DNA of 64,000 nt, taken from assembly GCA_000004985.1 (NCBI GenBank), contig GG738864.1; one strand, given 5' to 3'. Of the stretch, positions 50,496-52,816 are shown piece by piece. The position numbers and the translations under genes were made by a program. The DNA is from Naegleria gruberi. Taxonomy: Eukaryota. Numbering within the stretch: position 1 is the stretch's first letter; every line of letters starts with the position of its first letter. Under the pieces are notes generated by a model. That model had not been told where the DNA came from. It saw only the letters and a list, made by a program, of their open reading frames with translations, and did no database searches.

Positions 50496-52816
50496 TTATT
50501 GCACTAAACATTTCTTTTGTGGACGAACTTTACTACAATAATTGTCATCTCTGGTGACGGCAATTGTTCTCAAAATGACACTACTCAAATCATCAATGCC
50601 ATATCCTGTTTTGGAGCTAGTTTCAATATAAGTGGCACAACCCATCTTTTTGGCCATCAACTCTCCTTGTTCGAATGTGATTGGTTTTTCTTCATATTTA
50701 AGAATGAACTCCTTATTAAGAATTGAATCAGTACGATAGTCAATCTTGGTATTCACTAATGCCACAGGAGTGTCAGGACAGTGGTGTCTGATTTCTGGAA
50801 GCCATTTGGTGACAACATTGAAAAATGAAGCCTCTGACACACAACTAAAGTTCACTAAGAACAAAGATGTCCCTGGGTAGGACTATTACAATATTATTAC
50901 AAAAAATATAATTTCAATACTTACCAATGGACGCAATCTAAATAATATTAAGAAAACAAAAATAAAAATGATTAATTACCTATCATAATCTAAAATTGAT
51001 TAATTTCAATTAAATCCATTCAAAAAAAACTTACCTTCAGGACCAGCAGTATCCCTTTGTAAATGTTAACAATTATTAAAGAGATAGCTCAAATAACTTA
51101 CCATAGACCGATTGAATAAGTCTTGTCTTCAACTTTTACACTGATATTGTGATTGTCAAACACAGTTGGAATATAATCATTTGGATAATCTCCAGAAGTA
51201 TACCGTATTAATAGTGTTGTTTTACCAACTGCTCCATCTCCTACCGCAACAACCTTAAAAACACCATAAGGAGGATACTTGTCTAACATTTCAACCACAT
51301 GAGAATAGTTTAAAAGTTCAGACTTGGAACAATACTGTCTACCATCTGTACGTTGTTTTACCTCCTCAATTTTCAATGTTCTTTCAATATTCTTCTTTTC
51401 AACTTTTGACATGATGGCTTGAACAGCTTGAATGAGATTTTCCTTGTAATTTGACTTTTTACGTAAATAGGAATCGAAAATTCTTGATTGAGTGGTATCA
51501 AAAACATATTTACGAAGCACATAATCATAGGAACCAACAGTTTGCTTTGATGCCTTCTTAAAATCACTCAATTTTTTGAAATAAAAATCTTCCCAATATT
51601 GATCTTCAGTTGTTAAAGTGCAAATTCTCAATGATTTGGAAACCAAATGTAATTTCATTAAATCTTGAATGCTAAGAAATGATAGAACTGTTCTGAAAAT
51701 GTCATCATTCACCTTCTCATTAAATAAGTCAATATTAAATGAGCTTGTTTCTGATTTGATTATTGATTTTCCATCTTTCTTACTTGAAGTAATAGACGTA
51801 GTTGTTGGTGGAGAAACTGTAAAAACGTCAGGAGTCTTTTGAAATAATCCTCCAACTACAAAATAAGTAATAGAGGAATCAGTGGAAGGAATTTGCACAA
51901 GAGCATGAAGTACAGGTTGAGCTTCTTCCTTATTAGAATCATTGAAAATGGATGAAAGAGAATGAGTTGTATCAATCTTCCAACCTTGGCTAACATTTCC
52001 CAAATCAAGACATGTACAATCTGTGAAATTTTGATTTTGATTACAACCACCAACACTATACAATGTGTTTCCTTCCAAAACCATTGAATGTCCATATCTA
52101 GCAAACTGTTCACTCAAATTTGATGCAATAATCTCAGCATTAACTACCAATCTGTCAACACTCTCTACCAATGAATCAAGTGAAATCTTAATTGTATCTC
52201 TAATAATGGAATTAGCTGTTTTACCTCCATGAATATACCACTCTCCTGTTTCCTGATTCAAAACAGATGCATGATGATATCTCTTTGCAATTTGTTGTGA
52301 ATTTGATTCAATTTCCACAACTTTCCATTCAAATGTAGTCAAATTCAATTTGAATAATTCATTGGATGCAAAGCTATTATTATCATAACCACCAAACACA
52401 AATAATTGATCCTTAAAAACCACAGCTGATTGACCATAACGAGGAGAAATCAAATCTGATCCACTAGTCTGTAACTGTGTCCATAAATTATGTTCAAATT
52501 GATACAACCAAACATCTTTATGAAAACCATTCGATTTACCACCAAATAAAATCATTTCGTCTCGATTTCTCAAATAGGCAGAGTGACAATTTCTTGCACA
52601 TGGAATTAATTGTTGTTCTTGTTGATCAATTGATGTTAAATTCCTCCACAATTGTGTTGTAACATTAATTTCAATTAGATCATTACAATAAATGAGTGGT
52701 CTTGCTGAGGAAATGTCTGGATTTTTAATATAACCTCCGAATAGATAGATTTTATTGTTGTCTCTGTAAACACCGCTGTGACCAATACGAAGTGGTAGTG
52801 TGGAGAGTAATGACAT
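50496..52816 (-). CDS. Kelch-repeat / F-box / atypical Rho-family GTPase fusion protein, five exons
   Basis: Exon 1 is 51102..52816. It has Kelch blades (IYLFGGY, ILFGGKSNG, LFVFGGYDNN, WYIHGG, LYSVGGC, YFVVGGL), an F-box-like segment (DDIFRTVLSFLSIQDLMKLHLVSKSLRIC) and the Rho G1-G2 region [36 protein letters not shown]...IGLW. The micro-exons are 51035..51054 (DTAGPE), 50980..50989 (DYD) and 50925..50937 (RLRPL). The last exon is 50496..50882 (SYPGTSLFLVNFSCVSEASFFNVVTKWLPEIRHHCPDTPVALVNTKIDYR ... ETSSKTG ... CLVQ, a CAAX box). The introns are 42-47 nt with GTAAGT/GTAATT donors and TAG/AAG acceptors. Confidence 0.75.

What the first reader, a model, noticed from the sequence alone, without database searches (positions are those of the whole stretch)
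50496..52816. Kelch beta-propeller + F-box fused to an atypical (Gln61-to-Pro) Rho GTPase, hidden behind four 42-47-nt introns
The 572-aa ORF ends exactly after the Rho G3 leucine-tryptophan (IGLW). Reading through GTAAGT donors and AG acceptors recovers three micro-exons of 20, 10 and 13 nt plus the downstream ORF. Together they give a complete Rho domain: [39 protein letters not shown], SSK, and a CLVQ CAAX box. The invariant catalytic Gln of DTAGQE is Pro. This change occurs in GTPase-deficient atypical Rhos such as Rnd and RhoBTB. A Kelch propeller plus an F-box upstream of a Rho domain suggests an SCF/cullin substrate adaptor tethered to a constitutively GTP-bound Rho. That would be conceptually similar to RhoBTB, which is Rho + BTB acting as a Cul3 adaptor, but built from F-box/Kelch parts. 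I do not recognise this architecture as a described family. The 10- and 13-nt micro-exons are also unusual and easy for gene finders to miss.
Basis: partly seen in the sequence, partly recalled or inferred. Interest (0 to 1): 0.75.

Follow-up and report, generated by a model that had tools for sequence, protein, structure and literature searches.

The report
Kelch–F-box–Rac fusion gene, Naegleria
This is a real five-exon Naegleria gruberi gene that joins a Kelch propeller, an F-box and a Rac-like GTPase lacking its catalytic glutamine, but this gene and its domain combination were already corrected and listed in a 2021 paper, so it is only modestly new.

Summary
The minus-strand 572-aa ORF (52816-51098) ends after IGLW. 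Four GT-AG introns of 47, 45, 42 and 42 nt and micro-exons of 20, 10 and 13 nt join it to the last exon. The product is a 714-aa protein: Kelch propeller, F-box, helical linker, Rac-like GTPase ([17 protein letters not shown], so Gln61 is Pro) and CAAX CLVQ.

The window is Naegleria gruberi, a heterolobosean and not an amoebozoan. GenBank holds only a truncated 203-aa Rho model that skips the 10-nt exon. Herman et al. 2021 (PMC8296547, Table S8) already list this protein as a manually corrected "Rac". Their text notes F-box and Kelch fusions to GTPases and proposes GTPase-dependent ubiquitination.

Full-length homologues occur in N. lovaniensis, N. fowleri, Willaertia, Acrasis, Balamuthia, Pelomyxa and Stenamoeba. 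Physarum and Pelomyxa also have a permuted Rho-Kelch-F-box form. Pro61 recurs across this family and was never seen in the canonical Rac or Cdc42 hits.

The F-box is sub-threshold in this protein and lacks the Leu-Pro motif, but a family profile hits only F-box proteins in the PDB.

The most likely function is a farnesyl-anchored SCF substrate receptor with a hydrolysis-impaired Rac domain. This is inferred, not shown.

The parts
51102..52816 (-). Exon 1 (1715 nt). It starts at the ATG and encodes residues 1-571 plus the first two bases of Trp572. These residues cover the Kelch propeller, the F-box, the helical linker and the first third of the GTPase domain (G1, switch I, beta2-beta3).
   Evidence: The ORF is continuous. 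It aligns along its whole length with N. lovaniensis, N. fowleri and Willaertia proteins.
51809..52780 (-). Kelch beta-propeller, about residues 13-336.
   Evidence: Pfam hits: PF24681 2.1e-44, PF24981 1.5e-33, Kelch_1/2/3/4/6 1e-15 to 1e-27.
51575..51721 (-). F-box, about residues 366-414 (VNDDIFRTVLSFLSIQDLMKLHLVSKSLRICTLTTEDQYW). It is divergent: the Leu-Pro motif is replaced by Val-Asn.
   Evidence: In this protein, PF00646 scores 16.7 bits and PF12937 17.1 bits, both sub-threshold. The orthologues pass (22.8 and 24.2 bits). The family profile A2 hits FBXL5 at 4.6e-13, then FBXW7 and SKP2, and nearly only F-box proteins after that.
51257..51574 (-). Linker between the F-box and the GTPase domain, about residues 415-520. 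It is predicted to be helical.
   Evidence: The region aligns among homologues. It is helical in the low-confidence AlphaFold model of the N. lovaniensis orthologue. No Pfam family matches it.
50562..51256 (-). Rac-like Rho-family GTPase domain, residues 521-693. It is interrupted by four introns.
   Evidence: Pfam Ras 2.6e-40. The best solved relatives are Rac1 at 5e-58, and the Rho insert aligns. Identity is 55.9% to Rac1, 51.8% to Cdc42 and 43.8% to RhoA.
51055..51101 (-). Intron 1, 47 nt, GTAAGT...AAAG, phase 2, inside the Trp codon of LW.
   Evidence: The same TG|GTAAGT donor occurs in a 48%-identical relative (L004). L001 has a 1-nt indel here.
51035..51054 (-). Exon 2, a 20-nt micro-exon encoding (W)DTAGPE.
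   Evidence: It is unchanged in L001.
51039..51041 (-). CCT codon for Pro at the position of the catalytic Gln61 (Rac1 numbering).
   Evidence: The same Pro occurs in 14 other family members, including Balamuthia, Willaertia, Acrasis and Physarum.
50990..51034 (-). Intron 2, 45 nt, GTAAGT...TTAG.
   Evidence: L001 has a 2-nt deletion here.
50980..50989 (-). Exon 3, a 10-nt micro-exon encoding DYD(R). The GenBank model skips it.
   Evidence: It restores the invariant EDYDRLRPL motif, which N. lovaniensis and N. fowleri encode in one exon.
50938..50979 (-). Intron 3, 42 nt, GTAATT...TTAG.
50925..50937 (-). Exon 4, a 13-nt micro-exon encoding (R)LRPL.
   Evidence: The only difference from L001 is the synonymous change TTG to TTA.
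50883..50924 (-). Intron 4, 42 nt, GTAAGT...ATAG.
50496..50882 (-). Exon 5 (387 nt including the TAA stop). It encodes SYPGTS... through G4 (TKID), the Rho insert, G5 (SSK), the basic stretch RPQKK and CLVQ.
50499..50510 (-). CAAX box CLVQ, preceded by a basic stretch. It is a predicted prenylation signal.
   Evidence: Read directly from the sequence. C-x-x-Q endings are conserved in homologues: CYLQ, CLFQ, CLIQ, CLLQ, CFLQ, CCLQ.

Best explanation
The locus is a single five-exon gene of Naegleria gruberi. It encodes a 714-aa protein in this order: N-terminal Kelch beta-propeller, divergent F-box, helical linker, Rac-like GTPase domain, polybasic stretch and CAAX box (CLVQ).

The GTPase domain keeps all nucleotide-binding motifs, Gly12, Thr35 and the Rho insert. 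The catalytic Gln61 is Pro. The gene belongs to a family of F-box-Rho and Kelch-F-box-Rho proteins found in Heterolobosea and Amoebozoa.

Most likely mechanism (inferred):
- The F-box docks the protein onto Skp1-Cul1-Rbx1.
- The Kelch propeller recruits substrates.
- The prenylated Rac-like domain is slow to hydrolyse GTP and probably insensitive to GAPs. It holds the ligase at membranes, and/or it binds Rac effectors or regulators, or gates the ligase from within the molecule. This would be a functional analogue of RhoBTB-Cul3.

Shown here: the gene structure, the domain content, conservation and purifying selection. Inferred: Skp1 binding, the GTP-locked state, prenylation and ubiquitin-ligase function.
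For: Gene structure:
- Canonical splice sites restore the invariant switch II motif.
- The GTPase fold starts inside exon 1, so the Kelch/F-box ORF cannot be a separate gene.
- A roughly 97% identical relative, L001, has frame-breaking indels only in introns, a synonymous change in a micro-exon, an intact 715-aa spliced ORF and pN/pS 0.25.
- L004 has the same donor after LW.
- Orthologues encode [12 protein letters not shown] without interruption.

Identity of the locus:
- The window is N. gruberi.
- The truncated GenBank model is P0178.
- The corrected model is published in Herman et al. 2021, Table S8.

Domains:
- Pfam hits for Kelch and Ras.
- F-box support at family level.
- Rac1 is the best solved relative, and the Rho insert aligns.

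Family:
- Kelch-F-box-Ras is confirmed by Pfam in Balamuthia, Pelomyxa and Stenamoeba (a transcript), as well as in Naegleria. Willaertia (Kelch and Ras by Pfam; F-box via the family HMM) and Acrasis (Kelch and a truncated Ras) are also members.
- Pro61 recurs in 15 family members and in none of the canonical Rac or Cdc42 hits.

Mechanism:
- HRAS Q61P hydrolyses GTP about 8-fold more slowly (PMC6813200).
- RhoBTB is a precedent for a Rho domain fused to a cullin adaptor, with intramolecular control (PMC4931677).
- Herman et al. propose GTPase-dependent ubiquitination.
Against: - No transcript data were available, so the four introns are inferred from homology and comparative sequence.
- An in-frame GT-AG alternative exists. 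The GenBank model uses a donor 4 nt downstream and skips the 10-nt exon, giving PEGKLRPL.
- This protein's F-box is below Pfam thresholds and lacks the Leu-Pro motif. From general knowledge, that motif matters for Skp1 contact in many F-box proteins.
- HRAS Q61P is not transforming despite slow hydrolysis. Pro61 may therefore also change switch II conformation or effector binding, rather than simply locking the protein on.
- The AlphaFold model was too poor (pLDDT 60) to test interdomain contacts.
Confidence: 0.6

Rival explanations
1. There are two separate genes: a Kelch/F-box gene that ends at the TAA at 51098, and a stand-alone 203-aa Rho GTPase starting at an internal Met, as in the GenBank model.
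For: GenBank and UniRef carry a 203-aa 'rho family small GTPase' for this locus, starting at MLDKYPPYG (P0178). Prokaryote-style gene callers split the related metagenome contig in the same way.
Against: The start of the 203-aa model lies inside the 572-aa ORF, in the same frame. The ORF already contains G1, switch I and beta2-beta3 of the GTPase, and these cannot function without the downstream exons. Full-length homologues exist in many species, including a Stenamoeba transcript. Herman et al. corrected the model.
Confidence: 0.04
2. The gene is a decaying paralogue (pseudogene, or on the way to becoming one) within the very large, fast-turnover Naegleria Rho family. On this view, loss of Gln61 and of the F-box Leu-Pro motif are signs of decay.
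For: N. gruberi has more than 80 Rho genes, and Herman et al. describe birth-and-death evolution among Naegleria Rab-like GTPase clades. The F-box is sub-threshold. N. gruberi paralogues such as P0007 are strongly degenerate in switch II.
Against: The ORF is intact in two diverged genomes, with pN/pS 0.25 and conserved splice sites. Pro61 sits in an otherwise perfectly conserved [13 protein letters not shown] motif and is shared with Balamuthia, Willaertia, Acrasis and Physarum. Herman et al. do not flag this entry as a pseudogene.
Confidence: 0.05
3. The main mRNA skips the 10-nt micro-exon, as in the GenBank model. It would use the GT 4 nt downstream of the exon 2 end and the acceptor of intron 3. 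The result is ...DTAGPEGKLRPL..., a switch II without DYDR.
For: This path is also GT-AG and in frame, and it was chosen by the original annotation (my reconstruction from the sequence). A 10-nt exon is hard for any spliceosome to define.
Against: It removes the DYDR residues, which are invariant in Rho GTPases and in the orthologues. Its donor would be GTTTTT, whereas the other sites here and in the orthologues read GTAAGT, GTAATT, GTACGT or GTGAGT. The 10-nt exon and its flanking splice sites are unchanged in L001.
Confidence: 0.1
4. The protein is not a ubiquitin-ligase adaptor. On this view the divergent F-box-like helix bundle no longer binds Skp1, and the protein acts as a membrane-anchored Rac-type scaffold or decoy. 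The Kelch propeller would bind cytoskeletal or other partners, and the GTPase domain may still cycle slowly.
For: The F-box is sub-threshold, Leu-Pro is replaced by Val-Asn and helix 3 carries a 2-residue insertion in the heterolobosean clade. Kelch propellers bind many kinds of partner. HRAS Q61P behaves like wild type in cells.
Against: The segment is clearly homologous to canonical F-boxes in the amoebozoan members (56-60 bits in Pfam). N. lovaniensis and N. fowleri orthologues with the same Leu-Asn variant still pass the Pfam cut-off. The F-box is the most frequent partner of GTPase domains in Naegleria, which points to a selected function.
Confidence: 0.2

Closest known systems
Naegleria F-box/Kelch-containing 'Rac' proteins catalogued by Herman et al. 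2021 (BMC Biol 19:142, Table S8 and Additional file 4)
   Same: This is the same protein. Its sequence, beginning MSLLSTLPLRIGHSGVYRDNNK..., is listed as a manually corrected model of XP_002672362.1. Sibling entries are annotated 'Kelch, F-box'. The text proposes GTPase-dependent ubiquitination.
   Different: The table's extra-domain column says 'BTB' for this entry, but no BTB hit was found here at E<=1. The stored copy of the sequence is cut at about 500 residues, so I could not check whether their model includes the micro-exons. Searches of the paper and its supplements for 'micro-exon', and of the main text for 'intron', found nothing on micro-exons; I did not search them for Pro61 or for amoebozoan homologues. 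The column for orthologues outside Heterolobosea is empty for this entry.
RhoBTB (Rho domain + two BTB domains + BACK; Cul3 adaptor)
   Same: Both fuse a Rho-family domain with atypical catalytic residues to a cullin-RING substrate-adaptor module. There is a published model in which the GTPase domain controls ligase assembly from within the molecule (PMC4931677).
   Different: This protein has an F-box (SCF/Cul1 type) in place of BTB (Cul3 type). It has a Kelch propeller. The GTPase is at the C-terminus rather than the N-terminus. It has a CAAX box, and its Rac-like domain is nearly canonical (56% identical to Rac1). It is not a member of the RhoBTB family. Naegleria has separate true RhoBTB genes.
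F-box/Kelch proteins (for example human FBXO42, and the plant FBK/ZTL family)
   Same: Both combine an F-box with a Kelch propeller, the propeller being the presumed substrate-binding module.
   Different: In those proteins the F-box lies N-terminal to the propeller. Here the propeller comes first, and the position after the F-box and linker is taken by a GTPase domain. None of them has a GTPase or a CAAX box. This rests on my own knowledge, plus the weak FBXO42 hit.
Canonical Rac1 and the constitutively active Rac1 Q61L; GTPase-deficient atypical Rhos (Rnd, RhoH)
   Same: It has a Rac-type sequence with the Rho insert and prenylation signal. The catalytic Gln is lost, as in laboratory Q61L mutants and in natural atypical Rhos.
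   Different: Gly12 is retained. The substituting residue is Pro, which in HRAS slows hydrolysis but does not transform cells. The domain is part of a 714-aa multidomain protein.
LZTR1 (Kelch + BTB-BACK; Cul3 adaptor that ubiquitinates RAS-family GTPases)
   Same: The Kelch propeller belongs to the same Pfam propeller family (PF24981, Attractin/LZTR1; 1.5e-33). Both link a Kelch propeller, a cullin adaptor module and small-GTPase biology.
   Different: In LZTR1 the GTPase is a separate substrate, whereas here it is fused. The adaptor module is BTB rather than F-box. Whether the propeller here binds GTPases is unknown.

Membership tests
Rho-family small GTPase (Rac-like) | G1-G5 nucleotide-binding motifs are present | tested here: met
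   GDGAVGKT (G1), T35 in YIPTVFDN (G2), DTAG (G3), TKID (G4) and SSK (G5) are all present. Pfam Ras 2.6e-40.
Rho-family small GTPase (Rac-like) | The Rho insert helix lies between G4 and G5 | tested here: met
   YRTDSILNKEFILKYEEKPIT aligns with the Rac1 segment 120-139 with one gap.
Rho-family small GTPase (Rac-like) | The closest characterised relatives are Rho-family members | tested here: met
   Rac1 is the best PDB hit at 5e-58, followed by Rac3, Rac2 and Cdc42. Identity is 55.9% to Rac1, 51.8% to Cdc42 and 43.8% to RhoA.
Rho-family small GTPase (Rac-like) | A catalytic Gln61 for intrinsic and GAP-stimulated hydrolysis | tested here: not met
   The residue is Pro (CCT, 51041-51039). The protein is therefore an atypical member. 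The actual hydrolysis rate was not measured.
Rho-family small GTPase (Rac-like) | A C-terminal CAAX prenylation signal | tested here: met
   CLVQ follows the basic stretch RPQKK. Whether the protein is actually prenylated cannot be tested with these tools.
F-box protein / SCF substrate receptor | The F-box motif is recognised by a curated profile | tested here: inconclusive
   In this protein, PF00646 scores 16.7 bits (cut-off 20.5) and PF12937 scores 17.1 bits (cut-off 24.3). The aligned orthologues pass at 22.8 and 24.2 bits. The family profile hits FBXL5 at 4.6e-13, FBXW7 and SKP2.
F-box protein / SCF substrate receptor | A conserved Leu-Pro at the start of helix 1 | tested here: not met
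   This protein has Val-Asn (KVNDDIF). The other Naegleria and Willaertia members have Leu-Asn. The amoebozoan members keep Leu-Pro.
F-box protein / SCF substrate receptor | Binds Skp1 and assembles with Cul1-Rbx1 | not testable with these tools
   This needs a pull-down, a two-hybrid assay or a reliable complex prediction.
Kelch beta-propeller | Tandem Kelch repeats that form a propeller | tested here: met
   PF24681 2.1e-44, PF24981 1.5e-33, and four Kelch_1 or Kelch_4 stretches across residues 13-336. The blade count was not determined because the model was of low confidence.
RhoBTB | A tandem pair of BTB domains C-terminal to the Rho domain | tested here: not met
   No BTB family appears among the Pfam hits at E<=1, and the domain order is different. 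The protein is not a RhoBTB, despite the 'BTB' label in Herman et al. Table S8.
Kelch-F-box-Rho family of Heterolobosea and Amoebozoa (unnamed; catalogued in Herman et al. 2021) | Full-length collinear homology covering Kelch, F-box, linker, Rho and C-x-x-Q | tested here: met
   44% identity over 99% of the length to the N. lovaniensis protein P0002 (E 2.5e-178). Also N. fowleri, Willaertia, Balamuthia, Pelomyxa and Stenamoeba.

The most novel reading that the evidence does not exclude
Kelch-F-box-Rho proteins with a conserved Pro61 may form an old, selectively maintained class of membrane-anchored, GTP-locked 'Rac-SCF' ubiquitin-ligase receptors. The class would be shared by two eukaryotic supergroups, Discoba (Heterolobosea) and Amoebozoa, either by ancient descent or by transfer between amoebae. 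It would be a Cul1-based counterpart of RhoBTB-Cul3. It would couple Rac-type membrane or effector recognition directly to substrate ubiquitination in amoeboid cells. The distribution beyond Heterolobosea and the conserved Pro61 appear not to have been reported.
Probability: 0.3. Interest if true: 0.55.

Novelty: already known. Interest (0 to 1): 0.3.

Why it matters
As a discovery it adds little. The gene and its domain combination have been on record since 2021, and homologues are deposited from several genera.

Three points remain useful:
- The public GenBank/RefSeq model (203 aa, with DYDR missing) is wrong. It shows how micro-exons of 10-20 nt truncate multidomain GTPases in automated annotation.
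- The family extends to Amoebozoa, including a permuted Rho-Kelch-F-box form.
- Pro at the catalytic Gln61 position is a conserved signature of the family, not a one-off. This makes the family a clean natural system for asking what a hydrolysis-impaired Rac domain does inside a cullin-RING adaptor.

None of these proteins has been studied experimentally.

Tried and rejected
- The spliced protein could not be given to the search of protein representatives or structure prediction. I used an alignment led by the N. lovaniensis orthologue instead.
- The AlphaFold2 model of that orthologue, built from a 7-sequence alignment, was poor: mean pLDDT 60, with the F-box and linker below 50. I ran no fold search and drew no conclusions about interdomain contacts.
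- N. gruberi proteins are not indexed in the look-up of encoding contigs. I could therefore not see the GenBank exon table or the paralogue gene structures, and I reconstructed the splicing of the GenBank model from its protein sequence.
- A first bootstrap tree script timed out.
- The faster neighbour-joining tree of GTPase domains has weak deep support and does not settle whether the heterolobosean and amoebozoan members form one clade. I use it only for identities.
- There is no second copy of the gene in the window.
- Synteny with N. lovaniensis and N. fowleri is not conserved; their neighbours are an IQGAP-like gene and a Macro/WWE gene. Strict orthology is therefore unproven.
- I considered and rejected membership of RhoBTB, because no BTB domain is present.
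- Literature searches for Rho + Kelch + F-box + Naegleria found no dedicated study.
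Full report
**1. What is in the sequence**

On the minus strand, an ATG at 52816 opens a 572-aa ORF. It ends ...VEDKTYSIGLW, followed by TAA at 51100-51098. That TAA lies inside the hexamer GTAAGT.

Splicing at TG|GTAAGT and at three further GT-AG introns (47, 45, 42 and 42 nt) joins the ORF to exons of 20, 10 and 13 nt. 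A final 387-nt exon follows. The reading frame is kept and the product is 714 aa.

The micro-exons encode (W)DTAGPE / DYD(R) / (R)LRPL. The junction region therefore reads [24 protein letters not shown]. It aligns to human Rac1 residues 54-78 with a single change in the micro-exon part, Gln61 to Pro.

**2. Is the splicing real?**

No transcript data could be consulted, so the case is comparative.

(a) Exon 1 already contains G1, switch I and strands beta2-beta3 of the GTPase fold. The fold can only be completed by the downstream exons.

(b) GTAAGT is under-represented in the window: 10 copies on the minus strand against about 22 expected. Three of those 10 fall in this 220-nt stretch.

(c) An environmental contig about 97% identical (L001, from an ENA metagenome) differs here in the following ways:
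- a 1-nt indel in intron 1;
- a 2-nt indel in intron 2;
- one substitution in each of introns 1 and 2;
- a single synonymous TTG to TTA change in the 13-nt exon.

All splice dinucleotides are unchanged. Spliced the same way, L001 gives an intact 715-aa ORF. Over the whole coding sequence there are 16 synonymous and 15 non-synonymous differences, giving pN/pS about 0.25.

(d) A 48%-identical relative on another environmental contig (L004) ends its ORF at ...ELW with the same TG|GTAAGT donor.

(e) The N. lovaniensis and N. fowleri homologues encode [14 protein letters not shown] in one uninterrupted exon. Their two introns lie elsewhere, after GKT-S and after DRL-R. The peptide produced by the micro-exon model is therefore exactly what the family encodes.

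One in-frame GT-AG alternative exists. It uses the GT 4 nt downstream of exon 2 and skips the 10-nt exon, which gives PEGKLRPL. This is what the GenBank model does. It deletes the invariant DYDR, so I consider it an annotation error or at most a minor isoform.

**3. Organism and prior annotation**

The neighbouring 710-aa ORF (53342-55474, +) is identical to N. gruberi EFC45125.1 / XP_002677869.1. The window is therefore Naegleria gruberi (Heterolobosea, Discoba), not an amoebozoan.

The public model for this locus is P0178, a 203-aa 'rho family small GTPase' on the same 441,990-nt scaffold. It starts at an internal Met (MLDKYPPYG...), lacks the Kelch and F-box parts, and reads DTAGPEGKLRPL.

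Herman et al. 2021 (BMC Biol 19:142, PMC8296547) re-annotated Ras-superfamily genes of N. gruberi. Their Table S8 lists a protein beginning MSLLSTLPLRIGHSGVYRDNNKIYLFGG..., identical to this one over the roughly 500 residues held in the library copy. It is entered as 'Rac', a manually corrected model of XP_002672362.1.

Their supplementary text makes these points:
- Naegleria has novel multidomain GTPase architectures.
- Kelch motifs also occur.
- This points to GTPase-dependent ubiquitination.

The extra-domain column for this entry says 'BTB'. I find no BTB hit at E<=1. Sibling entries say 'Kelch, F-box'.

**4. Domains**

- **Kelch and Ras.** Pfam gives strong Kelch-propeller hits over residues 13-336 (PF24681 2.1e-44; PF24981 Attractin/LZTR1 propeller 1.5e-33). 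It gives Ras 2.6e-40 over residues 521-693.
- **F-box, this protein.** The F-box (about residues 366-414) scores only 16.7 and 17.1 bits here, below the Pfam cut-offs.
- **F-box, family level.** The segment aligns closely with the N. lovaniensis and N. fowleri proteins, which pass PF00646 at 22.8 and 24.2 bits. More distant members score 34-60 bits. A profile of 18 family F-box segments, searched against all PDB sequences, returns almost exclusively F-box proteins: FBXL5 4.6e-13, FBXW7 9e-13, FBXO3 and SKP2 about 1e-11.
- **F-box divergence.** The heterolobosean clade has replaced the Leu-Pro motif with Leu-Asn, or Val-Asn in this protein. It also carries a two-residue insertion. Skp1 binding is therefore not guaranteed.
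- **GTPase type.** The GTPase domain is Rac-type. Rac1 is the best solved relative (5e-58) and the Rho insert aligns. Identities are 55.9% to Rac1, 51.8% to Cdc42 and 43.8% to RhoA.

**5. The family**

A profile search of 1.84 billion representative proteins, together with name look-ups, finds two domain orders.

| Domain order | Organisms |
|---|---|
| Kelch-F-box-Rho-CxxQ | N. lovaniensis (two paralogues), N. fowleri, N. gruberi (paralogue P0007), Willaertia magna, Acrasis kona (partial), Balamuthia mandrillaris, Pelomyxa schiedti, Stenamoeba stenopodia (transcriptome, so the fusion exists in mRNA) |
| Rho-Kelch-F-box (permuted) | Physarum polycephalum transcripts; Pelomyxa, where it carries an added Vint/Hint domain |

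Shorter F-box-linker-Rho-CxxQ proteins without Kelch are also common. This suggests that the F-box-Rho unit is the core.

Pro at position 61, within an otherwise perfect [13 protein letters not shown] motif, occurs in 15 members. These include the window protein, N. lovaniensis, N. fowleri, Willaertia, Acrasis, Balamuthia, Physarum and several environmental sequences. It occurs in none of the canonical Rac or Cdc42 hits. Other members carry Gly, Ser or Gln at this position.

A neighbour-joining tree of the GTPase domains is poorly resolved at depth. It cannot decide between a single origin, transfer between amoebae and convergence.

**6. How it probably works (inference)**

The parts suggest a cullin-RING substrate receptor:
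- The F-box would bind Skp1-Cul1.
- The Kelch propeller would bind substrate.
- A prenylated, polybasic Rac-like domain sits at the C-terminus.

Gln61 orients the catalytic water for both intrinsic and GAP-assisted hydrolysis. HRAS Q61P hydrolyses GTP about 8-fold more slowly, like other codon-61 mutants, but unusually it is not transforming (review PMC6813200 citing Der et al. 1986). The domain is therefore probably slow-cycling or GTP-locked. Pro may also reshape switch II.

The domain could do any of three things:
- anchor the ligase at membranes;
- recruit Rac effectors or regulators as substrates;
- gate ligase assembly from within the molecule, as proposed for RhoBTB and Cul3 (PMC4931677).

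None of this was tested, and the low-confidence structure model gave no help.

**7. Verdict**

Its novelty claim does not hold: the corrected gene and the F-box/Kelch-GTPase architectures were published in 2021, and homologues are deposited under generic names.

This analysis adds three things: the explicit micro-exon structure with comparative support, the extension of the family to Amoebozoa including a permuted form, and the recurrent Pro61 signature. Interest is modest.

Noticed in passing
window 53001-53119 (-) and 14512-14630 (-): There are two 5S rRNA genes with identical Rfam scores (105.4 bits). They are dispersed about 38 kb apart among protein-coding genes. One lies only 185 nt upstream of the start codon of the Kelch-F-box-Rho gene.
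   Followed up: partly
window 50457-50495: The Kelch-F-box-Rho gene and the convergent 967-aa gene (47553-50456, +) are separated by only 39 nt, stop codon to stop codon. Their 3' UTRs must be very short or must overlap.
   Followed up: no
window 47553-50456 (+): This 967-aa ORF has a short-chain dehydrogenase domain at its C-terminus (PF00106 3.4e-14). Near the N-terminus it has an F-box-like stretch by eye (IPKEVILQIFCYLYKPEEF...), but Pfam did not report it at E<=0.001.
   Followed up: partly
window 53342-55474 (+): This is N. gruberi EFC45125.1. It has a Cys-rich N-terminus, a coiled coil, a BTB_2 (T1-type) domain, pentapeptide repeats and a C-terminal TLDc domain (Pfam). The combination is unusual.
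   Followed up: partly
window 17836-32697 (+): This is a single 4953-aa ORF with dynein-like AAA domains and an RZ-type zinc finger (PF20173 3.9e-20). It is an RNF213-like giant E3 ligase homologue.
   Followed up: partly
L002 (N. lovaniensis) and L003 (N. fowleri) against window 50883-51101: Intron positions inside the GTPase domain are not conserved within Naegleria. N. gruberi packs four introns into 43 nt of coding sequence in switch II. The other two species have two introns at different sites. This suggests recent intron gain or sliding.
   Followed up: partly
P0003 (N. fowleri KAF-type model, 731 aa): The N. fowleri homologue's model ends ...SDSKRSV without a CAAX box, unlike all its relatives. 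Its 3' end may be mis-modelled.
   Followed up: no
P0067 / P0124 (Pelomyxa schiedti): The permuted Rho-Kelch-F-box proteins carry a C-terminal Vint/Hint domain (PF14623 1.5e-10). This hints at autoprocessing in that branch of the family.
   Followed up: no
window 10001-12000 and 42001-44000: These are local G+C peaks (0.42 and 0.39, against about 0.33 elsewhere) with strong AT or GC skew. They coincide with long ORFs at 10346-12247 (+) and 42519-44129 (-). I did not examine them.
   Followed up: no
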